Source of the DNA: Prorocentrum cordatum
Lineage: Eukaryota
NCBI GenBank assembly: GCA_963575745.1
Contig: CAUYUJ010000162.1
Span: forward strand, 1 to 64,000
Length of the DNA stretch: 64,000 nt
Reading direction: 5' to 3'
A model generated the notes under the pieces. That model made no database searches and was not told the origin of the DNA. It saw only the letters and a list, made by a program, of their open reading frames with translations. A program made the position numbers and the translations under genes. Numbering within the stretch: position 1 is the stretch's first letter; each line of letters opens with the position of its first letter. Shown here one piece after another: positions 7,385 to 64,000 of this stretch.

Positions 7385-7533
7385 GACACCAACACCAACA
7401 TGGGCGGTGTGCCCTACCGAGGGAAGGTGCTCCCGATCTCGGTGATGGTGGTGGCCGAAGTATTACCACCAACACCGATATCGAGGATCATCTTCCTCCC
7501 GCTGAGGCATACCCGTGGGTTGGTGTTGGTGCC
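7385..7533. repeat. Imperfect hairpin with ~68-bp arms
   Basis: gacaccaacaccaac...gatctcggtgatggtggt pairs with accaccaacaccgatatc...gttggtgttggtgcc. Confidence 0.75.
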
Positions 7534-7545
7534 CATTTCCAGGCT

Positions 7546-7740
7546 CGGGTCGGGCGAAAGGGGGGGATAGTAAAGGGGGGGTTTGAGAATCAGCTCACGT
7601 AGCTGATTTTCCCAGCGCCTCCCGGAGCCGGGAGGCGCCCATGTATCGAGGAATGGGCCCGGCGGCGGGGCCGAAACCAGCTGCATGCAGCAGATTTCGT
7701 AACCCCCCCTTTCCCAATCTCCCCCTTTCGTTCGGCCCGA
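7546..7740. mobile_element. ~195-bp MITE-like element with internal hairpins, copy 1
   Basis: TIR tcgggtcgggcgaaaggggg / ccccctttcgttcggcccga; second copy at 43370-43556. Confidence 0.75.
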
Positions 7741-9131
7741 CAGGCCTCCCAATCTATCCGTCCTGGACCTGGCCCCGCCCGGCAGGGTGTTCTTTGAGCG
7801 ACGGGTGCCCTCAGCCCACGGGCGCTCGCGGGTCCCTCTCCTCCTCCTCCTCCTCCTCCTCCTCCTCCTCCTCTCCTCTCCCTCCTCCTCCCTCCTCCCC
7901 CTCCTCCCTCCTCCTCCCTCCTCTCCTCCTCCCCTCCTCCTCCTCCCTCCTCCTCCTCCCGCCTCCTCCTCCTCCTCCTCCTCGTCGTCCTCCTCCTCGT
8001 CGTCTTCCTCCTCCTCCTCCTCGTCCTCCTCCTCCTCCTCCTCCTCGTCCTCCTCCTCCTCCTCCTCCAACTCCTCTCCCTCCTCCCTGCTCGCGCTCTC
8101 CTCGTCGCGTGAGCCCGCCTGAGATATCCAGGAACCGTGCTTTGTGATGTGGCAGGCTCGTGCCGTGACCACTGGCGCGCGCTGGTCTCTGACACCGCGT
8201 GGCGTCGGCCAACCTTGCACGATCGCAACTTCCCGGCAGCGTGTACAGTCAACCCGGATGGTGAGGATGCGTGGTAAGGATGTCAGGGCCTTGGGGGGCC
8301 ATGCTGACGGTTTTCGAAAAAGGTTGGACAGTCAAAGTCACAAAGGACTGGCCGAGGGTGAAGGATGCAAGGACAGCCTTGGAATGGGAAGGATGGGCCG
8401 AAGGGCCTTCGAAGGGGAAGGATGCAGGATGGGCCGAAGGGGAAGGATGGGCAGAGGGGGAAGGATGCGAGGGCAGCCTTCGAAAATTGCACGACCCTGC
8501 GATGCGGGTGGATTGTATCCAGATCGCCCAGCTTCGCACACAACGCCCCGCGATGCGCGGCGCGAGGCGATCTTCGATCTTCGCGCCCTCGCGCCCTATA
8601 GCGCCGCCCCACCCTGGAGAAGGGCGCCTCTCCATCCCTGGCCGCGGTGCGCGGTTACCTTCGCGCCCCTGGGGGAGGGCCTGGGTGTATCGCTCGATCG
8701 CTCGGCCGCTTCGGAGCGCCGGCGGCGTTCAGGCCTGACTCCCGCGTTGGGGACACCGCCTCGTCGACACGACACGAACCTGGAGCCCGCTCTGTTCTTC
8801 GCGAGAGCGCCAAGGACCGGCCGCCCCCCGCCCTGGTCACGTCGCGGTTCGTGCGGGCACCGTCTGGGAATCGGCCATGCGATCACCCAAAAAGCCCGCC
8901 CCATGCGCGCGCGAGGAGCGAAGCACGCCGAATGGGACATCGCAACTGGACCGCAGCGCTTGAAATTCGTACGCTCGTCCCCCTCCTCCTCCTCCTCTTT
9001 TCCTCCTCCTTTTCCTCCTCCTCCTCCTCCTCCTCCTCCTCCTCCCCCTCCTCCTCCTCCTCCTCCCCCCCCCCTGGTCACGTCGCGGTTCGTGCTGGCA
9101 CAGTCTGGGCCTCGGCCGCCCCCCTGAGCAC

Positions 9132-9624: not shown

Positions 9625-11441
9625 TCAGTTGCGGCGCAAACGGATCTGTAGCACCAACAAGAAATTTATCAACACCTTATGGCTCACAATCGAAAGGCTG
9701 GAACCAACCATGCACCCTTGTGCTGACCGTATCATCGTCCCTACGAAATCTTCAAATTCAAAGCACCATATCGATTTGGGATTCAAGCGCCGAGCGTGCA
9801 CAGCATGTGCGTTTTCACAACGATTGCGTAGATCAACCTTGTAAGAGACACCGAGTATTGAGCGAGCCAATTATAATGCACCATGAATCTGTCGCAGCTG
9901 CTTACCATTTCCAGCGCCTGAGGGCGAGGGGTAAAATGACCATTGGATTTGCACGTGTCGAATATTGAGCATAACGAATGAAAACATGCCAGGCGGTGCT
10001 CGTCCCGTGAAGAACCTCGAGGAGGAGGAGGAGGAGGAGGAGGAGGAGGGGGGGGAGGAGGAGGAGGAGGAGGAGGAAGAGAATGAGGAGGGGCGCCTGT
10101 GTTGAACTCGAAACATACTCATTTTTAGCATATTCAACTGGTTCCTCAACTCTTGAATGTCGTACTCTATCAATATATGTTGCCACGCTATTTTCGGAGA
10201 TTCTTCTGGCGTTCCTTCGAATGGCCCATCAAACACGAGTTCCCACAACACTGCGCCCAGAAACCACTGAACAACGCCAAGGTGCCCTGTGCGCATTAAA
10301 TCCCCAGGGCAACTGAATATAGAAAACCCCCTCAACCTCTGTATTGGGCGATTGGTCACTGGCAGTAGCACCCCAATGCCATCGGGGGCGAGGTTGCGTT
10401 TCCACGCTGCGTCGCAAGACAGGTCTGCGAGCGAAAACTGCGCCCCCTGAGCCCGACTGATGGGGCCCAACCAACAAGGCTGATTACTTGCAAAATGAGG
10501 TAGATCCAATTCGTTAGCGAAGAATTCCAAATCCCCTGCAACAACCCACACCACAAGCCTGACCTGTCCATTGCAGGTAGGTGTTCCAGCTACCTGTTCC
10601 TGTGGCGAACCTTCTGGCCACCTGATGTGTTTGTGGTCCTTGTGAGGATGAACGCCGCCCCAGCAAGCGTTGGAATCATGCGTGTAAGACTCCCACATCG
10701 CACGAGCTGCGTCCGATTCCTCGCCATGTGTCCTCACTCCTTTGGGCAACACAAACCCTGGAAATATGTTTGCGTCGAACGCTGAAGACAACAAGCTTTT
10801 TACCGACACAACCAATAATGCATTCTGGTTCCTTTTAGTGCACACTCCGCCGTCTCCATGAAGAATGCAAGGGTGCGTGGTGCCCATCCAACCATCAATC
10901 GCAGTGATGTCAGCCATCAACTGGAATTTTGGATCAGCGGGGTCAACAGATTCCCAAAATGCTCGTGGATTCTCACCAAGCATTTCATTCAGTTGGAGCG
11001 GGAAGTGGCGAAAAAGAGATTCCAACCTTTCAGGCAATCCCAACGCAGATAGACTCATATCCACAAGGTTATCGTATTTATCATGTGCAGGTACTTCAAT
11101 GCGTAGAGGTGTCGGTAATGTGACATCGCGGCAAAAGCTCCGAATACGATCTCTCCAAAGGTGTTGCCTGGGCACAGACAATTCGAACCAAGTTGAGATA
11201 ACAATCTGAGCCCCCGACGTCGCGCACCAGCCTTTTCAGCGCAGCTACCGAGCCATTCCACGTTGGGCGCGCTGCGAAGCCCCCATCCGGAAAAAAAAGA
11301 CAATAACGCATCAACGGACTCACATCGACTCTCATCTGAAACATTTTGGCCTGGACTGCTGGACTCGAAACCGGCAGTGGCCAGGCGCTGATGAGAACCA
11401 CCTCTGCCCGTCAGCGCATGAAAAATGATGCCGTCATTCAT
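9625..11441 (-). pseudogene. Decayed CMC-superfamily (CACTA/Mirage/Chapaev- or Plavaka-like) DDE transposase
   Basis: Ordered motifs ILHGDGG (D1), VAGDLEFF (D2), PCWLG (degenerate CxxC), DLMRTGHLG (degenerate DxxH), NPKSIWCFEFEDFVG (E; compare CACTA GPxxxxWMYPFER); frameshift near 11170; microsatellite at ~10019-10092; TGA at 9625-9627. Confidence 0.75.
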
Positions 11442-13521: not shown

Positions 13522-13542
13522 CTTGAGCCAACTTTGCTATGG
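13522..13542 (-). promoter_or_regulatory. Relict spliced-leader-like motif upstream of gene B
   Basis: cttgagccaactttgctatgg versus cttgagccaaaatggctacgg (17/21), ~59 bp from the ATG. Confidence 0.75.
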
Positions 13543-28955: not shown

Positions 28956-30520
28956 GGGGCGTCCTTGGACGTCTGGGGTCTCCTGGGGCCTCTTGAGGGG
29001 CCTCCTGGGGGCCTCCTGGCGGCCTCTTGGGGCGGAAGGCTCGAGCTTGCGGTTCGTGGTCCCCCTCTGGGCCCCCTCTTGGGCCCGTCTTGGGGCCCTC
29101 TTGGGCCATCTTGGGCGCCTCTTGGGCCGTCTTGGGGCCCTCTTGGGCTGTCCTGGGGCCCTCTTGGAAGCTTCTTGGGCCGTCTTGGGGCGGTCTTGGG
29201 CGCCTCTTGGGCCGTCCTGTAACGTCGGAAAGCCCAAAAGACAACTTTGTTGAAAATGTACGTTTTACGAAGGGAATGGGCCAACTTTTGCGTCTAGGGG
29301 CCCTCTTGGGACGCATGTTGGAGGCTTCTTGGGGGCCTCTTGGGGGCGTCCTTGGACGTCTGGGGTCTCCTGGGGCCTCTTGAGGGGCCTCCTGGGGGCC
29401 TCCTGGCGGCCTCTTGGGGCGGAAGGCTCGAGCTTGCGGTTCGTGGTCCCCCTCTGGGCCCCCTCTTGGGCCCGTCTTGGGGCCCTCTTGGGCCATCTTG
29501 GGCGCCTCTTGGGCCGTCTTGGGGCCCTCTTGGGCTGTCCTGGGGCCCTCTTGGAAGCTTCTTGGGCCGTCTTGGGGCGGTCTTGGGCGCCTCTTGGGCC
29601 GTCCTGTAACGTCGGAAAGCCCAAAAGACAACTTTGTTGAAAATGTACGTTTTACGAGGGGAATGGGCCAATTTTTGCATCTAGGGGCCCTCTTGGGACG
29701 CATGTTGGAGGCTTCTTGGGGCCTCTTGGGGGCGTCCTTGGACGTCTGGGGTCTCCTGGGGCCTCTTGAGGGGCCTCCTGGGGGCCTCCTGGCGGCCTCT
29801 TGGGGCGGAAGGCTCGAGCTTGCGGTTCGTGGTCCCCCTCTGGGCCCCCTCTTGGGCCCGTCTTGGGGCCCTCTTGGGCCATCTTGGGCGCCTCTTGGGC
29901 CGTCTTGGGGCCCTCTTGGGCTGTCCTGGGGCCCTCTGGGAAGCTTCTTGGGCCGTCTTGGGGCGGTCTTGGGCGCCTCTTGGGCCGTCCTGTAACGTCG
30001 GAAAGCCCAAAAGGCGACTTTGTTAAAAATGTACGTTTTACAAAGGGAATGGGCCAATTCTTGCGTCTAGGGGCCCTCTTGGGACGCATGTTGGAGGCTT
30101 CTTGGAGCCTCTTGGGGGCGTCCTTGGACGTCTGGGGTCTCCTGGGGCCTCTTGAGGGGCCTCCTGGGGGCCTCCTGGCGGCCTCTTGGGGCGGAAGGCT
30201 CGAGCTTGCGGTTCGTGGTCCCCCTCTGGGCCCCCTCTTGGGCCCGTCTTGGGGCCCTCTTGGGCCATCTTGGGCGCCTCTTGGGCCGTCTTGGGGCCCT
30301 CTTGGGCTGTCCTGGGGCACTCTTGGGAGCTTCTTGGGCCGTCTTGGGGCGGTCTTGGGCGCCTCTTGGGCCGTCCTGTAACGTCGGAAAGCCCAAAAGG
30401 CAACTTTGTGAAAAATGTACGTTTTACGAAGGGAATGGGCAAATTTTTGCGTCTAGGGGCCCTCTTGGGACGCATGTTGGAGGCTTCTTGGGGCCTCTTG
30501 GGGGCGTCCTTGGACGTCTG
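28956..30520. repeat. Four near-identical 386-387 bp tandem units built on TCTTGGGGCC
   Basis: gggcgtccttggacgtctgg recurs at about 28957, 29344, 29730, 30116 and 30502. Confidence 0.95.
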
Positions 30521-53626: not shown

Positions 53627-54192
53627 CTTTGTATATGACCTTTGTTTGTATAGGTAGCGTGGTATATGCCATGTCTTGTATACGACCTGTGTTGTATGTG
53701 GCATGCTTCGTATATCACCTGTGTTGTATGTGGCATGCTCCATATAAGACAAGTGTTGTATGTGGCGGTTGTTGTATATGTGTTTGTTGTATATGTTGCT
53801 TTGTATATGACATGTCTTGTATACGATCTGTAATGTATGTGGCATGCTTCGTATATGACCTGTGTTGTATGCGGCATGCCTGTTGGGGACCTCTTGGCAG
53901 CGCTCTTTGAGGCCTCTTGGGGCGTTTTTGATGCCATCGTGGGCCGTCTGGAGGCCATCTTGGAGGCATCTTGGGCCATCTTGGCGGCCTGGGTGGGCTT
54001 CCTGGGCCGTCATGGAAGAGTTAAAGAGCGTGAGGGAGGCGCCATGGCCGCCCAGGCACCCCACGGGAGTAGGGGTGAATCACAACTGCGTGTCCCAGAG
54101 GGTGGGGGGGTCCTTAGGAGACCACAGAAACCCTGCCAGACAGCCCTTGGCATTCTTCCACGCCCCAACGTGCTGCAGGCACGGAGGCGAAT
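53627..54192. repeat. Dispersed composite repeat, copy upstream of the DNMT
   Basis: ACCTGTGTTGTATGTGGCATG array, then TCTTGGGCC array, then a tail ending gcacggaggcgaat; related to 56275-57210. Confidence 0.85.
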
Positions 54193-54430
54193 CTTGGGAC
54201 CCTCTTGGCTCTCTTGAGTCATCTTGGATATCTTGGGTCATCTTGGGCCGCAGACGCGCGTTGGAAGCGAAGGGGCGATACGGCAAACAAAACACTTGTA
54301 AGTTGCCCTACTCCTTCTCGCCCTCACCCTCCGCCTTTTTGCTCTACCCCGTGCAACCTTTCAACGGTCGCTGACGTCGGTGAGTTTCGCCCAATCGGGT
54401 CGTCCTGATAGACTGGCTGGTGGCCTACTT

Positions 54431-54638
54431 GACTGATGTATTGGGGGGGCTCACCAGCCCCCTGATACATCAGTCGGTGACGTCGGTGACTGATGAAAGG
54501 GAGGGGCATATGGCGATTCCTAAAATCGCGCCCCTCTCTCTCAACGGTCACAGGGTTCCCGCCCCTCCGATAGAACGGTCGGGGACGTCGGTGACTGATG
54601 TATCAGGGGGGCTGGCCAGCCCCTCCGATACATCAGTC
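54431..54638. repeat. Two GACTGATGTA...TACATCAGTC hairpins upstream of the DNMT
   Basis: 54431-54475 and ~54593-54638, each enclosing gggggg-ct...ag-ccccc. Confidence 0.75.
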
Positions 54639-54695
54639 GGATGGGATTGCGCCCGCCTGTAACCCCGATTGCATCCTCCAGTTGGTGTCCTTATG

Positions 54696-54718
54696 TCCTT
54701 AGCCTGTTTTGGCTTAAG
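54696..54718 (+). promoter_or_regulatory. Relict spliced-leader-like motif upstream of the DNMT
   Basis: tccttagcctgttttggcttaag versus tccgtagcc-attttggctcaag; ends 18 bp before ATG 54737. Confidence 0.75.
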
Positions 54719-54736
54719 CTCGCATTGCGAGCTAGG

Positions 54737-55891
54737 ATGGTCCTCACCAAGCCGGTAAAGAAGTTCGCACCAGATAAATCATTTCGGGTCCCCCGTGTCA
54801 TCAAGATCGGAGCTGACTTTGCAGGATACGACACGGCTTTCATAGCGGCCAAACGTCTTGGGCTTAATTGCGTCTCATCATTCGTGTGCGAGAACAACCG
54901 TTCTTGCCAGAAGGTGCTCCGTCATTCAGGCCACTCCACAATCATCGAGGATGCCACGGACCGCGACCCGACTCAGATGCCAGCTGTCGACAGATTCACG
55001 TTCTCTCCGCCGTGCGTGGATTTCAGCAATGAGGGGCTCGGAGCTGGCGAAGATGGAACGACAGGCCACCTCTACAAATGCAGTCTCGACTATATTCGGA
55101 AAGCGAGGCCGAGGCTGGCAATATACGAAAACGTGGCCGCCCAGTACGAGCGGCAGAAATTCAAGACAACGGTGAAGCGCTTGGTGAAGACTTTGCAGAA
55201 CTACAGCTACAACGTCCATCGACGTGTACTAAACACCCGCAACCATGGTGTCCCTCAGTCACGACGCCGCTTCTACATCGTGGCCATTCTAAAGGCAGCA
55301 CAGCGCTGTGAGTTCAAGTGGCCAGAGACGACGCCCCTGAAATACACCATGAAGAATGTCGTGAAGCCGTTCGTGAGAGGGACTGACCACAAGTTCAAGC
55401 TTCCTGGGAGCACGCCCGAGACCGATCACTTCACGCGAAAGCAGCGCAATCGCTGCCGTTCGCTGGTCAAGGCCGCCGTGAAGACGGCCAAGGAGAAGCT
55501 GGCACAGTACAAAGAGAAGTTGAATATCAACAGCTCCGTCTTCTGCGACATCGATTGCACCCCCAAGTTCGCCAGGGTCTCCGGCAAGGACGTGCACACC
55601 CTCACAGCATCCCGTGGAATGGCAAGTGGGCCGTGGATCGCGCCCCGTGGGCGCCGCACAGATCTCGACGAGATGTGCTGGATTCAGGGCCTGGACCCGA
55701 AGGTTGACATCGACTTCGTCGGCGCCGGCGTCAGCGATCGGCAGGCTGGCAAGATGCTCGGCAACGCCATGAGTTTGAACATCGCCGAGCGATTGCTAAT
55801 CCCAGCGAGCACTGCGGCGGAGCTTGTCTCGTGGACGCCGTCGGACAGGTGGGCCGACGATCAGGTTATCGTCAAGCCTTCGTGGTCCTGA
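54737..55891 (+). CDS. C5 cytosine DNA methyltransferase, 384 aa, intact and intronless
   Basis: Motifs in canonical order: I GADFAGYD, II VCENN, III EDAT, IV FSPPCVDFSNEG (catalytic Cys), VI YENV, VII-VIII YNVHRRVLNTRNHGVPQSRRRFYIVA, IX RRTDLDEMCWIQG, X MLGNAM. Confidence 0.95.
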   Translation: MVLTKPVKKFAPDKSFRVPRVIKIGADFAGYDTAFIAAKRLGLNCVSSFVCENNRSCQKVLRHSGHSTIIEDATDRDPTQMPAVDRFTFSPPCVDFSNEGLGAGEDGTTGHLYKCSLDYIRKARPRLAIYENVAAQYERQKFKTTVKRLVKTLQNYSYNVHRRVLNTRNHGVPQSRRRFYIVAILKAAQRCEFKWPETTPLKYTMKNVVKPFVRGTDHKFKLPGSTPETDHFTRKQRNRCRSLVKAAVKTAKEKLAQYKEKLNINSSVFCDIDCTPKFARVSGKDVHTLTASRGMASGPWIAPRGRRTDLDEMCWIQGLDPKVDIDFVGAGVSDRQAGKMLGNAMSLNIAERLLIPASTAAELVSWTPSDRWADDQVIVKPSWS

Positions 55892-56274
55892 TCTCGGTGC
55901 CTTGAGGCGCCGGCCGATGCCTGGCTGCCTGCCGTCCAGGGTCGGACCTTGCATGTGGCAATTGCTGTACCTTCGAATGCACATTGAGCTTGCGTGATAC
56001 ATAATCACGCACGTTTTCTGAGTACGAGTTCAGGGCACCGTTGACGTCAACAGCGACACCAACATCGCTTGCTTTCTGACTCATCCCTCCTGCTCCCTCC
56101 TCCCCCTTCCTCATCGTTCTCCCGCCTCATCCTCCTCCCTCCTCCAACTCCCTGCGGGCCTTCTGGGAAGCAGCCCAAGAGGGCTACAAGAGCGGCCCAA
56201 GATGGCCCCAAGAGGGCCAACGCCACTAATCAAGCTCGTGCAATCTAGTGGTCTTCGGCCAATCCAGCCACCGC

Positions 56275-57210
56275 GCGGCATGCTTCGTATATAACCTGTG
56301 TTGTATGTGGCGGTTGTTGCATATGAACTGCTTTGTATATGTGTTGCTTGGTATTTGGCATGTCTTGTATACGACCTGTGTTGTACGTAGCACGCTTCGT
56401 ATATGACCTGTGTTGTATGTGGCATGTTTCGTATATAACCTGTGTTGTATGTGGCGGTTGTTGTATATGACGTGCTTTGTTTATGGGTTGCTGTGTATAT
56501 GGCATGTCTTGTATACGACCTGTGTTGTACGTGGCATGCTTCGTGTACGACCTGCGTTGTATGTGGCATGTGTCGTGAATGGCATGTGTTGTATGTGGCG
56601 TGTGTTGTATATGACCTTTGTTGTATGTGTTGCTTTGTATATGGCATGTCTTGTATACGACCTTTGTTGTATGTGGCATGCTTCGTATCTGACCTGTGTT
56701 GTATGTGGCATCCTTGGTATATGACCTGTGTCTTATGTGGCGTTTGTTGTGTATGACCAACTTTGTGTATGGGGTGTTTTGTATATGGTGTGTCTTGTAT
56801 ACGACCTGTAGTGGGTGTGTGTGTGTGTGGCATGCTTCGTATATGACCTGTGCGTTGTATGCGGCATGGCTGTTGGGGGCCTCTTGGCATGGCTCTTTGA
56901 GGCCTCTTGGGGCGTCTTGGAGGCCTCTTGGGCCGTCTGGAGGCCATCTTGGGCCGTCTTGGAGGCATCTTGGGCCATCTTGGCGGCCTGGGTGGGCTTC
57001 CTGGGCCGACATGGAAGCGATAGAGAGCGTGACGGAGGCGCCATGGCCGCCATGGCCGCTCAGGCCCCCCCCGGGAGTAGGGGTGATGCAAACACAACTG
57101 CGTGTCCTGGAAGGTGGGGGGGCCCTTAGACTTAGCAGACTACAGACACCCTGCCAAGCAGCCCTTGGCAGTCTTCCACGCCCCAGCGTGCTGCAAGCAC
57201 GGCGGCGAAT
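56275..57210. repeat. Dispersed composite repeat, copy downstream of the DNMT
   Basis: Same modules and orientation as 53627-54192, with a longer satellite part. Confidence 0.85.
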
Positions 57211-57626
57211 ACTTTGCGCTTCTTTGGGGTGCCGTCTTGAAGCCCTCTTGAAACCCACATAGGCCTCTCTTGAGCCCTCTTAAGCCCCCCGTTGAAGGTC
57301 TCTCCTGGCCCGTTTACTGAATCATGAGCCTCGAAGGCGCCCTTGAAAGACTCCTTTGCCACTTGAAGCCGTATTCGGGCGATCTAGGGCCTCTTAAGCC
57401 ATCTCGGGCTATCTTGAACGGTCTTCGGGGTCATCTTGACCTATCTAGGGCCCTCCTGGGGCCATCTTGAGCCACAACATGAAGCCGTGCCCGTCCGGGC
57501 CCAGGGGGAGGGGGCAGGGGGAGATAGAGGTACCTCCCCCCGAAGAGGAAGTAGGGGATTTAACATGATGAGCTCCTGAAGCCACCTCCGCTAAGCGGGC
57601 TGGTGGGATTCGCCTTCTGGAACATA

Positions 57627-57643
57627 TAGCCATTGTGGCTCAA
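57627..57643 (+). promoter_or_regulatory. Relict spliced-leader-like motif upstream of the large ORF
   Basis: tagccattgtggctcaa versus DinoSL tagccattttggctcaa (16/17), ~65 bp before ATG 57709. Confidence 0.8.
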
Positions 57644-57708
57644 ACTTGCAAGGTTTGGCGTGTACTCTCAGTCGTCTTGTTAAGTATTCACTTGCCTGTG
57701 CCTTGTAG

Positions 57709-60632
57709 ATGGCCCATAGGAAGTAAGCTGCTAAGAAAGCTGCGGCGAAAGCAAAATGTGGGGCAGTGCCTGCAGGCCTGGAGGTCCCCGATGCGTGCAA
57801 GGACAACAACGTTGACCACTTGGGGCTTGTGTCCCAATGGCTGGATGCGGTCCGTGCCGACCCGCTGGTCTCTTACAAGTGGGAGGAGGTCTTGAGCATG
57901 GCAAACGGTGCCCACATGGCAGGCTACACCAAGAGCGACTTCGACACCGCAATGCGAAACGGCACGAGCTACACCTGCGCAGGCGGCTTCGCTTGGCAGG
58001 ATTGCTTGAAGTCGCCAAGTCCGGGTGTTTCCATTAGCACAAAGTAAGTCTTGAGGGATATCGAGACTTCTTTCCCAGGGGGGGAGCCGCCCAAGATCGG
58101 GGTCCAGCAGCCCATCATCATCCAAGTGCTGGGGGACGAGTACAATCCAATGGAGCACGTGGGTGCAATGAAGCGGCTTTCGCCTTGTGAATTTGTTCAC
58201 GCCTTACTGGGTGGCGCCGAGTTGGCCGTGGAGAAGCAAGTGCCAGACGCCGTGAAGCGACAGTGGAACGCGATCCTCCGGTCTGTCACCCTTCGCTTCC
58301 AGAAGCTGACTGAGGATCAGGTTAAGAACGGCATGTCCATTGCGGCGTTCTCGCACAGGGAGACGCTGGTCCAGGACATGGAGCGAGCAGGGTGGACGAC
58401 ACTCCAGCGCATCGAGTCCGTGCTCATCGAACGTGCCAGGCTCGCGAAGGAGTTATCGAAGCAGGTGAACGAGCCCGTCCTCACCAAGCACTTGAAGAAC
58501 GTCCGGCTGGCGGACTCCAGTGAGCCAATGAACAAATCGTTCGTTGATTGTTGTCTGACTATCGAATCACGGTTGAAGTCCATTGCCTCTTGCCAGTCTG
58601 TGCTCCGTGCTTTCGAAGAGGAGTCGCCGAATATGGTCAGCACGCCGCTCAACAGCGTCTACAAACTCAATGCCATCATCAGTAAGGCTCGCGTCCCGGA
58701 GGACATCGAATGGACCATGCAGGCATTGTACGACGGCTTCAAGATGGGATATATTCACATCGGTGAGTTCAGTATGGTGAAGCTGTCTCAGATCCTGTGC
58801 AGCTGCGCGCTGTTGCAGAAGAAGTTCAAGGAGTGGGTGTTCCGGTTCATCGATAAGCACCACTTCAAGCCAGAGTTCAATGCGAAGATTCGGGAGTATT
58901 TGTCTTCGCATTCCAAGTGCCGACAGGCCCTCACCAACCGCCCAGGGGACGCCGTGGACGACATAGCTTTCCTCAGTGCTTGGCCGCAGAGCTCCGCCAT
59001 GATCCTGACGCTTGCAGAGTCTATCATCTACGGGGACAGCTACAAGTCCTCAATGCGGAACTGCATCCAGGCTCGCAAAAGTGTGTTGGAATTTGTGGAG
59101 TACCCGTCCGTGAAGACCGAATTGGACAAGTGCCTTCAACAACTGGAGGCTGAGGCGACGACCCCAGCCTGCGACATCACCGTGACCGCCGGTGACGAGA
59201 AGAATGGTAAACCGACCGCCTCTCTCGTTACGCACGCTGTTGGCGCTGAGGACACCAAATTAGAGGAAGCAGTGAAGGCCCTCGAGGAGACGCAGCTCAA
59301 AGATCTCAACAGAGAGTTGGACAAGCACGTGCGCAGGTACTGCTCCTTTAACGTCTACCCCACCCATATGAACGAGCTGAAGACTATGACAGAGTCAAGC
59401 GAGCTGGCAAAGCAGGCCGGGGACGGAAGCGGATTCGCCATGATTCTCTTCAACGCTGACGCTTGGTGCGAAGCTGCATCGCAACCCAGGTCCCGCAAGC
59501 CCCCTGTGCCAGACAAACTGTACGAGCGAGCAGTGGCCGCGGTCATGATGGGCCGCTTCCGAGGCGAGGACGCTTCGAACGCCACCCTCAACGAAGGCGA
59601 TTTGGTATGCTGCCTGGATGGCTCCAGGCCAGGCCTCGTGAAGCGCCTGGTCAAGCCTTGGGTCAAAGGCCTGGCGAAGACGACGAAGCTGGAGGGAGAG
59701 GACGCTGAGGATGACCTGGATGACGATGCACATCCAGGCGACGTCGAGGTCAAGAAGGGCTACTGTGAGCGAAAGGTCGACTGTTTCATGCTGGAGTCTT
59801 CGGCGAAGGCGAGGAAGGGCAAAGTGAGGGGCACGGCGCTGCTGTGCTAGACGTTTCGAGTCCACCTTGTATCGAAAACTCCGATTTGCCTCCCAGAGCG
59901 TGCGTGCGACATCTACCAGGGCCAGACCAAGCGTGGCACTATTTTGGGGCCCGTGGTGCTCGGCAACCCCGACAACGAGTGGGTCGACACCGTGCTGAAC
60001 AAGAAGAAGATCTATGGCTCTTGGCGCATCCCAGTGAGAGGACTATGCCCCAACGGCGATAAGGAGAAACGCCCTGATGCATCGGTAGAGCGCGTGTTCT
60101 TCAACTCGCTCCCATCGACGTTCTTCGAGGCCCTCTTCAAGCGTTTCTACGTAAAGGTCGTCTACGACATGACCCCTGAATGCGGCGGGGCGGCCTTCGC
60201 CTGCGCCAAACTTAGGATTGGATACTACGGTCTGTGCATGACCACCGAACATGCGGAGCAGATCCGCTCCATGCCATGACGCGGACTTCCGTGCTTGCCG
60301 AGATGAAGACCACTGGCAGCCCGATCTACAGCACCGCGATCGCCGCCATCATGAAGTCCACTGGGAATGATCCTAAGGCTGAGCCCAAGAAGAGGTCGAG
60401 GCCTGGCAAGAAGGAGGGCAAAGATGGCAATCCCGAGGGGGGAAAGAAACCTAAGAAGCTGGGGGCGGACGATGCCGCCGGCAAGAAGGACACGAAGGCT
60501 AAGGCCAAGAAGCCCAAGAAGACGATTGACCAAGACGGCGAGGGTGGAGACGGGTCGAATTCCTCGCTCTCGGACGGCAGCGCGTGGGATGACAAGGAGG
60601 ATCCTTGCTCAGATGGTGACGACTTTCGCTGA
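57709..60632 (+). pseudogene. Large (~970 codon) gene with a possible degenerate beta-class N6/N4 DNA methyltransferase-like C-terminal domain
   Basis: One frame from ATG 57709 through TAA 57724, TAA 58045 and TAG 59848 to ~60275, then a frameshift to a Lys-rich/acidic tail ending TGA 60632. LPSTFFEALFKRFYVKVVYDMTPECGGAAFACAKLRIGYYGLCM resembles KPxxLxxxLI...VLDPFxGSG...AAxxLGRxxIGxE. The coding origin is well supported; the domain call is tentative. Confidence 0.65.
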
Positions 60633-61479
60633 GGGCTGCGCCAGAGCTTGCGAATTTCAATTTCAATGAATGATTCCGATGGAACCGCTGATCACAAGCC
60701 CTCCCTGCGGACCCGTCGCCGGGGTCGACGGGTCGCCAGGGGTTTACAGGGGGGGCGTCTGCAGCCAATCTTACACCTCTTCTGCACTGGATTGGATAGA
60801 TAGTGCTGCTCGAAGCAAGCTGAATCATGAGCTCACCAAGCAATCGACTTGCGTGATGGACGTCTCGGCGGTTTCCAGTATCAAGTGGCCTGCGGCCTAT
60901 TATTCCGCCACTGTGCCTGGATCAGACGCTTCTTGGGGTCTGTAGGGGAACCTCTCTGGATCATCTTGGGAACACTCGGGGGCACCCTTGGGGCCTTTCG
61001 GGGGTTAGGCTCGGGGGCTCCCGGGGAACTCACTCTCGGGGGCTGCTGGCGGTTACTGGGGCAAGGGGAGGGCTTGGACTGACAATTCGCGTTCCCCCTC
61101 TTAGGCTCCTCTTGGGGCTCCTTGCGGCCCTTTTTGGACTCTTGGGGGCCCCTGGCCCGTCTTAACTCGGCGACATGTCCTTCTTGGGGGCCTCTTGGGC
61201 CGTCTTGAGTCCGTCTTGGGCGTCTTGGAACGCTCTTGGCCAGTATCAAGGCCCTCTTGGATAGTTTTGGGGGCCTCATTGGACCCTCTTGGCCCGAGGC
61301 CTCCTGAGGAAATCCACCCCTTGGGCCTCAAAGGGACCTGAGGACTCTCCAACTCGTACCTCGAAGCACGGTTGCGGATCATCGGGAAACGCGTTCTGTT
61401 GTGAAACGTGTTGTCTTCAATCGATTCAGACATTATCCCAGTGCGACCCTACCTAGGAGTTGGAGCATTCAGGAAAGCA

Positions 61480-63479: not shown

Positions 63480-64000
63480 ACCAACAGGGCTCCGAGACGT
63501 CCCCGAGAGCCCCAAGAAAGGCCAAGAGGCCCCCAAGAGGCCCCCAAGATGGTACACGAGGGGTCCGACATGCCACAAGATCGCTCCAAGACGCCCAAGA
63601 TAGCCCCCAGACGCCCCAAGAGGCCTCCAAGAGCACTCCCAAGAGGGCCCCCGGAGGCAAAAATCATTGTTTTTCCTTAGGTTTTTGAGAGATTTTGGAG
63701 CTTCCACCTTTTCGGCTTCCCGACGCCCCAAGACGGCCCAAGAGGCCCCCAAGATCGCCCCAAGAGGGCCCAAGAGGCCCCCAAGAGGGCCCCAAGATGG
63801 CCCAAGAGGGCTCGAAGACGGCCCAAGAAGCCTCCAAGACGGTCCAAGAGGGCCCCAAGAATGCCCCCAAAGGGGCCCCAGAGAGGGAACACGAAACAAC
63901 ATTTCGAGCCCTCGGCCCTAAGAAGCCCCTACGAGGCCCCAAGAGGCCCCCAAGAGGCCCCAAGAGGCCCCCACGAGGGCCTCAGGAGGCCCCCAAGAGT
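63480..64000. repeat. GGCCCCAAGA-based dispersed repeat array
   Basis: Same ~10-11-mer as at 5160-5300, 28956-30600, 42480-42930 and 61100-61300. Confidence 0.9.

What the first reader, a model, noticed from the sequence alone, without database searches (positions are those of the whole stretch)
54431..60740. Tandem methyltransferase locus: intact C5-DNMT plus a large N6/N4-MTase-like gene, both SL-tagged
Seen: a complete stand-alone DNMT and, after a ~1.5 kb repeat insertion, a co-oriented large gene; each has a near-canonical SL relic; paired hairpins lie upstream (54431-54638) and another hairpin downstream (gacccgtcg/cgacgggtc, ~60710-60735). Established: dinoflagellates carry expanded, mobile-element-associated C5 methyltransferases. 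Inference: this may be a mobile DNA-modification cassette pairing a 5mC writer with an amino-MTase-fold partner, with no RT or transposase visible in cis.
Basis: partly seen in the sequence, partly recalled or inferred. Interest (0 to 1): 0.8.

Follow-up and report, generated by a model that had tools for sequence, protein, structure and literature searches.

The report
Cytosine methylase beside broken methylase-fold gene
A dinoflagellate-type locus holds an intact bacterial-style DNA cytosine methyltransferase gene next to a decayed copy of a very large, unnamed gene family that folds like an adenine/N4-cytosine DNA methyltransferase but lacks its catalytic motif, and the same two families sit side by side at a second, very distant locus.

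Summary
The observation largely holds. 54737-55891 is an intact 384-aa C5 DNA methyltransferase (PF00145, E 9.7e-34) of bacterial/phage Dcm type. 57709-60632 is a co-oriented large gene. Each has a spliced-leader relic just upstream. A 208-nt foldback lies at 54431-54638.

Three corrections. The large gene is a pseudogene here, with three in-frame stops and a 5-nt duplication frameshift that its relatives lack. The "1.5 kb insertion" is spacer repeat, and a copy also sits upstream of the DNMT. The downstream hairpin is near chance.

The gene belongs to an unnamed family of at least 1348 clusters. All six named genome records I saw are dinoflagellates. One Prorocentrum cordatum gene model joins a distant member of this family to a DNMT of the window's lineage, so the pairing recurs.

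No reverse transcriptase, transposase or shared termini were found. Mobility is unproven.

The parts
53629..54192 (.). Spacer repeat copy 1, made of a 16/32-nt minisatellite followed by 11/21-nt TCTTGG-type repeats, upstream of the DNMT.
   Evidence: 82.1% identical over 609 columns to 56605-57210. Tandem arrays are listed.
54431..54638 (.). The outer arms are 54431-54462 and 54607-54638, and each end also folds on itself.
   Evidence: Inverted repeats I1, I2, I7 and I14. DNA fold of 54355-54660 gives -87.4 kcal/mol, z -9.2, 0 of 100 shuffles as good. Its flanking 20-mer occurs only here in the window.
54700..54718 (+). Spliced-leader relic 1 (TAGCCTGTTTTGGCTTAAG), ending 18 nt before the DNMT start codon.
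   Evidence: Sequence read. The 15-mer core matches with 3 mismatches. The DinoSL sequence is as printed in PMC9651163 and PMC12014239. A 1255-nt contig of run X2 starts at 54713, inside the relic.
54737..55891 (+). Intact intronless C5 DNA methyltransferase gene, 384 codons plus stop (P0001), of bacterial/phage Dcm type.
   Evidence: PF00145 E 9.7e-34, 117.7 bits against a cut-off of 22. TIGR00675 108.7 bits against 100.65. phrog_116 E 8.4e-41. PADLOC MTase_II E 3.9e-38. Best solved relative is M.HhaI, E 1.3e-11. Motifs PC, ENV, GVPQSRRR and GN are conserved.
56277..57210 (.).
   Evidence: Summed contig depth in run X1 reaches 34034 in bin 56871-57137, against about 5-7 over the genes.
57627..57644 (+). 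Spliced-leader relic 2 (TAGCCATTGTGGCTCAAA), 2 mismatches to the 18-nt DinoSL core.
   Evidence: 2 hits with up to 3 mismatches against 0.04 expected.
57709..60632 (+). Pseudogene of a large dinoflagellate gene family (full length about 900-1070 aa). In-frame stops at 57724-57726 (TAA), 58045-58047 (TAA) and 59848-59850 (TAG). A 5-nt duplication shifts the frame near 60265-60274.
   Evidence: Translations. Collinear with full-length relatives over residues 12-848. P0004 reads Q and P0013 reads K at the TAG codon, and both read through the frameshift. The run X1 contig lacks the 5 nt at 60269.
59326..60345 (+). Part of the pseudogene that corresponds to the beta-class amino-methyltransferase fold domain (P0004 residues about 110-450). 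The motif-IV position reads AMILF-NADAW. The motif-I loop reads DMTPECGG.
   Evidence: AF2 model of P0004, pLDDT 82.3, pTM 0.73. Foldseek and VIA-align matches. Column conservation. Coordinates are mapped from the alignments.
60710..60735 (.). Short GC-rich hairpin (9-bp stem) downstream of the pseudogene. It is probably not a feature.
   Evidence: z -2.57, 3 of 200 shuffles fold as well.
60950..61292 (.). More TCTTGG-type satellite downstream of the pseudogene.
   Evidence: Depth 8239 in X1 bin 61143-61400.

Best explanation
The locus holds two separately spliced-leader-tagged, intronless dinoflagellate genes set in repeat-rich spacer DNA.

Gene 1 is an intact, probably functional, stand-alone C5 DNA methyltransferase of bacterial/phage (Dcm, type II) ancestry. 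It belongs to a dinoflagellate lineage that also includes the DNMT part of P. cordatum protein P0298.

Gene 2 is a dead copy of a very large, so far unnamed family. Every named genome record of it that I saw is a dinoflagellate. Its C-terminal ~330 residues adopt the circularly permuted beta-class amino-methyltransferase fold, the fold of CcrM, M.PvuII, M.RsrI and rotifer N4CMT. A motif-I-like SAM loop is recognisable, but the (D/N/S)PP(Y/F/W) catalytic tetrapeptide is missing. A ~500-residue, poorly conserved N-terminal region precedes the fold and a Lys-rich/acidic tail follows it.

Inferred: intact family members are most likely non-canonical or catalytically inactive methyltransferase-fold proteins that bind nucleic acid or SAM. 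The two families are genetically linked, being neighbours in two deeply diverged loci. This fits a functional pairing of a 5mC writer with an MTase-fold accessory, as with METTL3/METTL14 or DNMT3A/DNMT3L. In this window only the DNMT half can still work. The copies arose by the ordinary dinoflagellate route of mRNA retroposition and local duplication. They are not shown to be an autonomous mobile element.
For: DNMT identity and intactness.

A 97%-identical copy of the DNMT exists in two other runs. In X2 it is a 1255-nt contig running from inside the SL relic to 73 nt past the stop. This is a weak hint of an mRNA-derived contig.

Gene 2 is broken.

Family size: 1348 representatives at E<=1e-3, 641 at E<=1e-10 and 65 at E<=1e-30, found with a 539-position profile.

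Family range: named members are Prorocentrum cordatum/Polarella glacialis (P0013, P0033, P0298) and Symbiodinium sp. CCMP2592 (P0071, P0110).

Permuted order and motif I: strand 147-154 comes first, and strand-helix-strand 387-415 carries DLTPGxG (D 87%, G 65%, G 76%). hhalign places that stretch on motif X-I of the YhdJ family.

Recurrence: P0298 consists of the family domain at residues 39-755 (27% identity to P0002, E 1e-70), a PF00145 DNMT at 920-1231 (E 2.6e-40; 34% identity to P0001 along the whole length including the variable region, E 3e-54), and a further 600 aa. In a tree of 46 family members, P0298 and the window copy lie in distant clades, with patristic distance 3.04 against 0.63 to P0004.

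SL relics.
Against: Sequence methods do not support MTase homology. There was no PF01555 hit in P0002, 0 of 72 relatives at E<=1e-3 and 0 of 96 at E<=5. There were no NCBIfam, PHROG or PADLOC hits in 10 members. A profile search of PDB sequences gave nothing relevant. hhalign probability was only 2.3%. The fold assignment therefore rests on one predicted model.

The linkage rests on two loci only. The second is a merged gene model with a junk-like linker, and its gene order is reversed.

Both families may be large enough for occasional chance adjacency. I could not count copies in any genome.

The DNMT differs from its 97% copy by 12 synonymous and 21 non-synonymous changes among the 33 listed differences. 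Constraint on this particular copy is therefore weak, and an open frame alone does not prove function.

No poly(A) remnant is visible after either gene (read).

The N-terminal half of gene 2 was not folded.
Confidence: 0.55

Rival explanations
1. Chance neighbours. The DNMT and the pseudogene are unrelated retrocopies that landed, or were duplicated, side by side in a one-directional, repeat-rich dinoflagellate gene array. The second adjacency (P0298) is coincidence between two abundant families.
For: Each gene has its own SL relic, so each came from its own mRNA. Retrogenes are reported as 22-25% of Symbiodinium genes (PMC12014239, passage). The partner family is huge. Gene order differs between the two loci. 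The window partner is dead while the DNMT is open, so they are not co-maintained here.
Against: Of the DNMT loci of this lineage whose neighbour I could see, 2 of 2 have a member of the family next to them (window; P0298). The two pairs are deeply diverged in both genes: 27% and 34% identity, and distant clades. Both genes' nearest relatives outside this species group are about equally distant (P0005 60%, P0004 61%).
Confidence: 0.25
2. This is a mobile two-methyltransferase cassette, a 5mC writer plus an amino-MTase-fold partner, that moves as a unit using enzymes supplied in trans. The foldback and repeats would be its boundaries.
For: The pairing recurs at a second locus. A strong 208-nt foldback lies 61 nt upstream of the first SL relic. 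The same 600-nt repeat precedes both genes. There is precedent in retrotransposons carrying both a DAM and a DNMT domain ('EpiLTRs', bioRxiv 10.64898/2026.05.21.726589, passages read) and in SymbioLINE-Dnmt (PMC5890265, sections read).
Against: There are no shared termini or target-site duplications, and no second copy of the foldback in 64 kb. There is no RT, endonuclease or transposase domain in gene 2 or in the 25 other ORFs of 220 aa or more that were scanned. Two separate SL relics argue for two mRNAs and not one unit. The unique parts lie at single-contig depth of about 4-7 in run X1 at 85% likeness or more, so there is no sign of many recent copies there. The downstream hairpin is near chance. 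No relatives were found in viral contigs.
Confidence: 0.13
3. The large gene is in fact intact and active. On this view the stops and the frameshift are assembly or consensus errors, and the protein is a working DNA or RNA amino-methyltransferase with a non-canonical active site.
For: The related run X1 lacks the 5-nt duplication. Close paralogues are open at the TAG codon and the frameshift (P0013) or open over their own span (P0012, from a transcriptome). D at the first motif-IV position is kept in 75% of family members. E160, P165 and R168 just after it are 96% conserved, which suggests a conserved site of some kind.
Against: Four independent lesions of two kinds in 2.9 kb are unlikely to be errors. 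Whether X1 shares the three stops could not be read, because the difference table was cut. The PP-aromatic part of motif IV is missing in the whole family. In this subfamily the first glycine of the SAM loop is Glu.
Confidence: 0.07

Closest known systems
Bacterial/phage type II C5 DNA methyltransferases (Dcm superfamily; M.HhaI, M.HaeIII)
   Same: The window DNMT has the single-domain architecture and all catalytic motifs. It passes the PF00145 and TIGR00675 cut-offs. Its best solved relatives are M.HhaI and M.HaeIII, ahead of DNMT2. No DNMT1 or DNMT3 chain was listed at E<=0.01 in the single-sequence search.
   Different: It is encoded in a eukaryotic (dinoflagellate-type) genome behind a spliced-leader relic. 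No restriction partner is recognisable. Motif I reads FAGYD instead of FxGxG, a variant shared with P0005, P0007 and P0011.
SymbioLINE-Dnmt and other 'orphan' dinoflagellate DNMTs (de Mendoza 2018, PMC5890265; Sarre 2025, PMC12344493)
   Same: It is an intronless, lineage-specific, domain-poor DNMT in a dinoflagellate genome, with another large ORF downstream.
   Different: The downstream ORF has no endonuclease or reverse transcriptase and has an amino-MTase fold instead. There is no CpG depletion: o/e is 1.10 against 0.84 for the window. Phylogenetic placement against SymbioLINE sequences could not be done because no reference sequences were at hand, and the supplements searched held none.
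Beta-class DNA amino-methyltransferases (N6_N4_Mtase, PF01555: CcrM, M.PvuII, M.RsrI, M.MboIIA, M1.HpyAVI, rotifer N4CMT)
   Different: Identity to the structural matches is only 7-14%. There is no Pfam hit in 96 members. The (D/N/S)PP(Y/F/W) tetrapeptide is replaced by D-V-K-L in the family and N-A-D-A-W in the window. The family adds a ~500-aa N-terminal extension and a charged tail.
Catalytically inactive MTase-fold partners (METTL14 with METTL3; the DIRS1 MTase domain; DNMT3L with DNMT3A)
   Different: The pairing here would be between a C5-MTase and an amino-MTase fold, for which I know no precedent as a heterodimer (recalled, not searched).
EpiLTRs: retrotransposons encoding both a DAM adenine MTase and a DNMT (bioRxiv 10.64898/2026.05.21.726589)
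   Same: A 5mC writer and an amino-MTase-type domain are genetically coupled in a protist genome.
   Different: EpiLTRs are LTR elements with RT, integrase and a chromodomain. Their DAM domain keeps the NPP(Y) site and sits in one polyprotein (passages read). Here there are two separate SL-tagged genes, a beta-class fold without the site, and no retroelement genes.

Membership tests
C5 DNA methyltransferase (PF00145 / TIGR00675 dcm) | Scores above the curated family cut-offs | tested here: met
   PF00145 117.7 bits against 22. TIGR00675 108.7 bits against 100.65.
C5 DNA methyltransferase (PF00145 / TIGR00675 dcm) | Catalytic motifs IV (PC), VI (ENV) and VIII (QxRxR), and motif X (GN) | tested here: met
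   PPCVDFS, YENV, GVPQSRRR, LGNAMS. P92, C93, E131, N132, Q174, R176 and R178 are invariant in alignment A5.
C5 DNA methyltransferase (PF00145 / TIGR00675 dcm) | Motif I FxGxG SAM loop | tested here: inconclusive
   It reads FAGYD. The same variant occurs in P0005, P0007 and P0011. The 97% copy in runs X1/X2 has G at this codon (D32G).
C5 DNA methyltransferase (PF00145 / TIGR00675 dcm) | Methylates cytosine C5 in DNA | not testable with these tools
   This needs expression in a dcm-minus host and methylation mapping.
SymbioLINE-Dnmt retrotransposon | DNMT ORF1 followed by an ORF2 with endonuclease (PF03372) and reverse transcriptase (PF00078) | tested here: not met
   No such domain is present in gene 2 or in the 25 other ORFs of 220 aa or more in the window. 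Definition from PMC5890265 section 6.
SymbioLINE-Dnmt retrotransposon | CpG depletion relative to the genome | tested here: not met
   CpG o/e is 1.10 for the DNMT CDS against 0.84 for the window.
SymbioLINE-Dnmt retrotransposon | DNMT falls in the SymbioLINE orphan clade | not testable with these tools
   No reference sequences were available. The supplements held as text contained none.
Beta-class amino-MTase (N6_N4_Mtase, PF01555) | Sequence match to the family model | tested here: not met
   P0002 gave none at E<=1. 0 of 72 relatives at E<=1e-3. 0 of 96 at E<=5. hhalign against the YhdJ family gave probability 2.3%.
Beta-class amino-MTase (N6_N4_Mtase, PF01555) | Fold and permuted motif order (IV ... 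X-I) | tested here: met
Beta-class amino-MTase (N6_N4_Mtase, PF01555) | Motif I glycine-rich SAM loop | tested here: met
   The family reads DLTPGxG (D 87%, G 65%, G 76%). In the window copy and in P0013 the first G is E (TPECGG).
Beta-class amino-MTase (N6_N4_Mtase, PF01555) | Motif IV (D/N/S)PP(Y/F/W) after strand beta-4 | tested here: not met
   After strand 147-154 the family reads D(75%)-V-K-L-S-G-E. P0004 reads N-A-D-T-W and the window reads N-A-D-A-W. There is no Pro-Pro.
Beta-class amino-MTase (N6_N4_Mtase, PF01555) | Transfers methyl to N6-adenine or N4-cytosine | not testable with these tools
   This needs assay of an intact family member.
Dinoflagellate retrogene (DinoSL relic-tagged) | Relic of the 22-nt spliced leader on the coding strand upstream of the ORF | tested here: met
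   54700-54718 and 57627-57644. Definition from PMC12014239 and PMC9651163.
Dinoflagellate retrogene (DinoSL relic-tagged) | No introns | tested here: met
   The DNMT is one ORF. Gene 2 is collinear in one frame with full-length relatives over residues 12-848.
Dinoflagellate retrogene (DinoSL relic-tagged) | Poly(A) remnant or target-site duplication | tested here: not met
   No A-run was seen after either stop codon when reading. No flanking direct repeat pair appears.
EpiLTR (DAM + DNMT retrotransposon) | LTR retroelement genes (RT, integrase) and a DAM domain with an NPP-aromatic site | tested here: not met
   No RT or integrase. The fold is beta-class without PP. Definition from passages of the preprint.

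The most novel reading that the evidence does not exclude
Dinoflagellates carry a conserved two-part DNA-modification module. One part is a Dcm-type 5mC writer. The other is a member of a huge, unnamed beta-class amino-methyltransferase-fold family. That second protein could be a methyltransferase with a new active-site solution (hFDxKxxGE...RPxxR in place of DPPY), perhaps writing 4mC or 6mA. Alternatively it could be an inactive targeting subunit for the DNMT. On this reading the module has been kept together since before the deepest splits of the family, and it spreads by retroposition.
Probability: 0.2. Interest if true: 0.8.

Novelty: new variant of a known kind. Interest (0 to 1): 0.55.

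Why it matters
Dinoflagellate DNA is heavily modified, and the enzymes behind this are only partly known. This analysis assigns a fold to a very large "dark" family that no Pfam, NCBIfam, PHROG or PADLOC model recognises. The family has at least 1348 clusters at 50% identity.

The family is a diverged beta-class amino-methyltransferase fold without the canonical catalytic motif, and it is found next to a bacterial-type C5 methyltransferase in two deeply diverged loci. If the pairing is functional, it would be a new kind of writer-plus-accessory arrangement, or a new active-site variant of an amino-methyltransferase, in a eukaryote.

The question is directly testable with genome-wide neighbour counts and simple expression assays. 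My literature searches found no description of such a family. Those searches cover only the held open-access library.

Tried and rejected
Whole-genome search of the source: no genome is held, so copy numbers and neighbour statistics could not be computed.

Rfam on the window: no match.

Earlier scan notes: nothing by place, sequence or words.

Loci searches. Alignments A2, A3 and A1 were too diverse for the search for related loci. A4 in metagenome contigs matched 273 pattern stretches with 0 confirmed. P0292 in metagenome contigs matched 593 stretches with 0 confirmed. In viral contigs, A4 matched 94 with 0 confirmed and P0001 matched 4 with 0 confirmed. No extra genomic contexts were obtained.

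Sequencing runs: no RNA holder is listed. In one search, run X2 had no cover on gene 2, and runs X6 and X7 had almost none anywhere. This is not evidence of absence or silence. The difference table was cut (201 rows not shown), so I could not see whether X1 shares the three stop codons.

ESM Atlas for P0078: no model is held. The feature hits were unnamed clusters, labelled Streptophyta from a few members, and this was not followed up.

Sequence-profile routes to an MTase assignment gave nothing significant (Pfam; PDB profile; hhalign).

An intron reading of the TAA at 58045 (GTAAGT...CAG, 35 nt) was rejected. The length is not a multiple of three, and relatives align in one frame across it.

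A PD-(D/E)xK nuclease reading of the conserved hFDxK stretch was considered. It was set aside because the model places that strand as beta-4 of the MTase fold.

The supplements of PMC5890265 held as text contained no DNMT sequences. Supplementary figures and data that I could not see may hold the SymbioLINE sequences needed for placement.

Full report
WHAT IS THERE

The window is GC-rich (0.49-0.65 in 2-kb bins) and repeat-rich. Apart from the DNMT, none of the 25 other ORFs of 220 aa or more that I scanned reached a Pfam cut-off.

On the + strand, 54737-55891 is a single open frame of 384 codons (P0001). It matches PF00145 at E 9.7e-34 over profile positions 7-318 of 324. It passes the NCBIfam dcm superfamily cut-off, 108.7 bits against 100.65. 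It also matches phage and type II restriction-modification methylase models (phrog_116 E 8.4e-41; PADLOC MTase_II E 3.9e-38).

Among solved structures M.HhaI is nearest (E 1.3e-11), then M.HaeIII. DNMT2 is far weaker (7.2e-5), and no DNMT1 or DNMT3 chain was listed at E<=0.01. A profile search keeps the same order. The profile includes five Logan/ENA relatives (P0007-P0011) that carry no source names and look bacterial or phage-like, so it is biased toward that result.

The catalytic motifs are all present: PC in PPCVDFS, ENV, GVPQSRRR and GN. Motif I reads FAGYD. This variant is shared with relatives P0005, P0007 and P0011, so it is not a lesion.

THE SECOND GENE

Reading 57727-60279 in one frame gives a protein interrupted by TAA at 58045 and TAG at 59848 (P0002). 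The rest continues in another frame to 60632. The likely start, ATG at 57709, is followed by a third in-frame stop at 57724. Relatives' N-termini map to about 57700-57770.

The nearest relative, P0004 (61% identity), reads Gln at the TAG codon and reads straight through the frame change. P0013, a named P. cordatum protein that is 88.5% identical over 59752-60273, reads Lys at that codon and also reads through. A contig of a related DNA run (X1, about 97% identical) lacks 5 nt at 60269. The window copy is therefore a pseudogene unless the assembly is wrong at four places.

THE FAMILY

No Pfam family matches P0002. A profile of the C-terminal 539 positions, searched against 1.84 billion representatives, found 1348 proteins at E<=1e-3, 641 at E<=1e-10 and 65 at E<=1e-30. 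Full-length members are about 900-1070 aa and align with P0002 from residue 12-60 to 848 at 21-31% identity.

No domain recurs in these proteins: 0 of 72 at E<=1e-3 and 0 of 96 at E<=5. Ten members gave no relevant match in NCBIfam, PHROGs or PADLOC; the few rows were scattered chance-level hits at E 0.05 or weaker.

Where sources give names, they are Prorocentrum cordatum/Polarella glacialis (P0013, P0033, P0298) and Symbiodinium sp. CCMP2592 (P0071, P0110). There are also transcripts filed under a Pyramimonas MMETSP sample, which are 95-100% identical to the window or to P. cordatum proteins.

FOLD

AlphaFold2 on P0004 with 90 family sequences gave mean pLDDT 82.3 and pTM 0.73. Most 10-residue blocks between about residues 90 and 450 are above 90, with low-confidence loops near 230-250 and 350-360.

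Foldseek against the PDB returned 26 matches at E<=1e-3. Every listed hit at that level is a beta-class DNA amino-methyltransferase: M1.HpyAVI (E 1.4e-5, TM by target 0.61-0.67), a type III Mod subunit, TTHA0409, M.PvuII, CcrM, rotifer N4CMT, M.BceJIV and M.RsrI. M.MboIIA follows at E 1.9e-3, and METTL14 chains come further down.

VIA-align does not depend on Foldseek. Run against 48,161 chains, it put 11 beta-class enzymes first:

The viral library gave Pandoravirus, Megaviridae and phage N4C/N6A methylases. The ESM Atlas's own model had pointed the same way.

The order of elements is the beta-class permutation. A strand at 147-154 is equivalent to beta-4. A strand-helix-strand at 387-415 carries DLTPGxG. 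hhalign lays this stretch on motif X-I of the YhdJ family, but with only 2.3% probability.

The defining catalytic tetrapeptide is missing. After beta-4 the family reads D(75%)-V-K-L-S-G-E(96%)...R-P(96%)..R(96%). The window subfamily reads N-A-D-A/T-W.

Membership in PF01555, and enzymatic activity, are not supported.

SPLICED-LEADER RELICS AND REPEATS

The DinoSL is printed as (D)CCGTAGCCATTTTGGCTCAAG in PMC9651163 and PMC12014239. The window has TAGCCATTGTGGCTCAAA at 57627-57644. The 18-mer with up to 3 mismatches gave 2 hits in 128 kb of both strands against 0.04 expected. It also has TAGCCTGTTTTGGCTTAAG at 54700-54718, with one indel and two substitutions. Each relic is on the coding strand, 64 and 18 nt before the start codon, and each keeps the AG that serves as the new acceptor.

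The 1.7-kb spacer between the genes consists of a 16/32-nt minisatellite (56277-56809) and 21-nt TCTTGG(A/G)GGCC repeats. Window 56605-57210 is 82% identical over 609 columns to 53629-54192, upstream of the DNMT. The TCTTGG repeat recurs at 60950-61292, around 29000-30500 and at 63500-64000. It reaches summed contig depths of 8,000-34,000 in run X1, against about 4-7 over the unique parts. It is therefore genomic satellite and not an insertion into an element.

The foldback at 54431-54638 is strong (z -9.2) and unique in the window. The hairpin at 60710-60735 is not convincing (z -2.6).

OTHER COPIES

Run X1 covers the whole locus in at least eight contigs at about 97% identity. This includes the unique spacers, so the locus as a whole exists in a related genome.

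Run X2, whose kind is not on record, holds a single 1255-nt contig equal to 54713-55964. It starts inside the SL relic and ends 73 nt after the DNMT stop, and it carries the same variants as X1. This looks like an mRNA-derived contig but is only a weak hint.

Of the 33 listed differences in the DNMT coding region, 12 are synonymous and 21 are not. By my rough estimate dN/dS is about 0.5, so constraint on these two copies is weak. CpG is not depleted: o/e is 1.10 for the DNMT, 0.92 for gene 2 and 0.84 for the window.

IS THE PAIRING MEANINGFUL?

The key result is P0298, an 1838-aa P. cordatum gene model that UniRef names a DNA (cytosine-5-)-methyltransferase. It lies in the same 90% cluster as family member P0033.
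- Residues 39-755 are a member of the partner family (27% identity to P0002, E 1e-70).
- Residues about 800-908 look like translated repeat spacer.
- Residues 920-1231 are a PF00145 domain (E 2.6e-40). It aligns with P0001 over its whole length at 34% identity, E 3e-54, including the variable region (DIDCxxKFA, GPWxxxRGRR).
- A further 600 aa have no counterpart in the window.

In a tree of 46 family members, the window copy and P0298 lie in distant clades, with patristic distance 3.04 against 0.63 to P0004. The two families are therefore neighbours in two deeply diverged loci, in opposite order.

The nearest relatives of the two window genes from another source are about equally distant (P0005 60%, P0004 61%). 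This fits co-inheritance but does not prove it.

I could not obtain more genomic contexts, so the strength of the association is unknown.

MECHANISM, WITH WHAT IS SHOWN AND WHAT IS INFERRED

Shown:
- an intact Dcm-type DNMT
- a broken partner gene with a beta-class MTase fold that lacks motif IV
- separate SL relics
- shared spacer repeats
- one further adjacency of the same two families

Inferred:
- Both genes arose by retroposition of trans-spliced mRNAs, the known dinoflagellate route (PMC12014239, PMC9651163, passages read).
- The DNMT can methylate DNA.
- Intact partners bind SAM and/or nucleic acid, and are either inactive accessory subunits or enzymes with a different active site.
- The families are functionally coupled.

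I found nothing that supports autonomous mobility.

COMPARISON WITH THE KNOWN

SymbioLINE-Dnmt elements have a DNMT ORF followed by an endonuclease-RT ORF, and they show CpG depletion (PMC5890265, sections read). Neither holds here. Sarre et al. 2025 describe 'orphan' DNMT clades, including SymbioLINE and virus-derived ones (PMC12344493, passages). This DNMT fits that loose category.

EpiLTRs couple a DAM and a DNMT inside LTR retrotransposons (preprint passages). Here the amino-MTase fold is beta-class, lacks its active site and is a separate gene.

Inactive MTase-fold partners are known, namely METTL14 and the DIRS1 MTase domain (PMC4738411, passages).

My literature searches found no description of this dinoflagellate family.

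VERDICT

The local pair is half dead and is not shown to be mobile. However, the fold assignment of a very large dark family, and its recurrent linkage to a bacterial-type DNMT, are new and testable.

Noticed in passing
window 13522-13539 (- strand), with ORFs 12707-12186 and 11058-9871 (-): A third spliced-leader relic (TAGCAAAGTTGGCTCAAG, 3 mismatches) lies on the minus strand. Downstream on that strand are open frames of 173 and 395 aa. The stop-to-stop frame 9871-11235 that holds the 395-aa ORF had no Pfam match, and the 173-aa ORF was not scanned. This may be another decayed retrogene.
   Followed up: partly
window 56871-57137, 61143-61400, about 29000-30500, 63500-64000: A 21-nt TCTTGG(A/G)GGCC-type repeat occurs in both orientations across the window. 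It reaches summed contig depths of 8,000-34,000 in a related DNA run, so it is a very abundant genomic satellite.
   Followed up: partly
proteins P0012, P0299-P0301 (EukProt EP00959, filed as Pyramimonas sp. CCMP1952): Transcripts filed under a green alga are 95% identical to the window's gene 2 and 98-100% identical to parts of a P. cordatum protein. That transcriptome probably contains dinoflagellate sequences through contamination or mislabelling.
   Followed up: no
protein P0298 residues 1240-1838 (P. cordatum gene model): A third ~600-aa region follows the DNMT in the merged gene model. It has no Pfam match and no counterpart in the window. Near-identical transcript fragments exist (P0299, P0301). 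It may be a third gene of that locus.
   Followed up: partly
window 54831 (DNMT codon 32): The ~97% copy in runs X1/X2 has Gly where the window has Asp at the last position of motif I (FAGYG against FAGYD). The two copies therefore differ in the SAM loop.
   Followed up: partly
window 7414-8331 (-): A 305-aa frame gives a weak CDC45 match below the cut-off (E 9e-5, 21.4 bits against 34). It is probably compositional.
   Followed up: no
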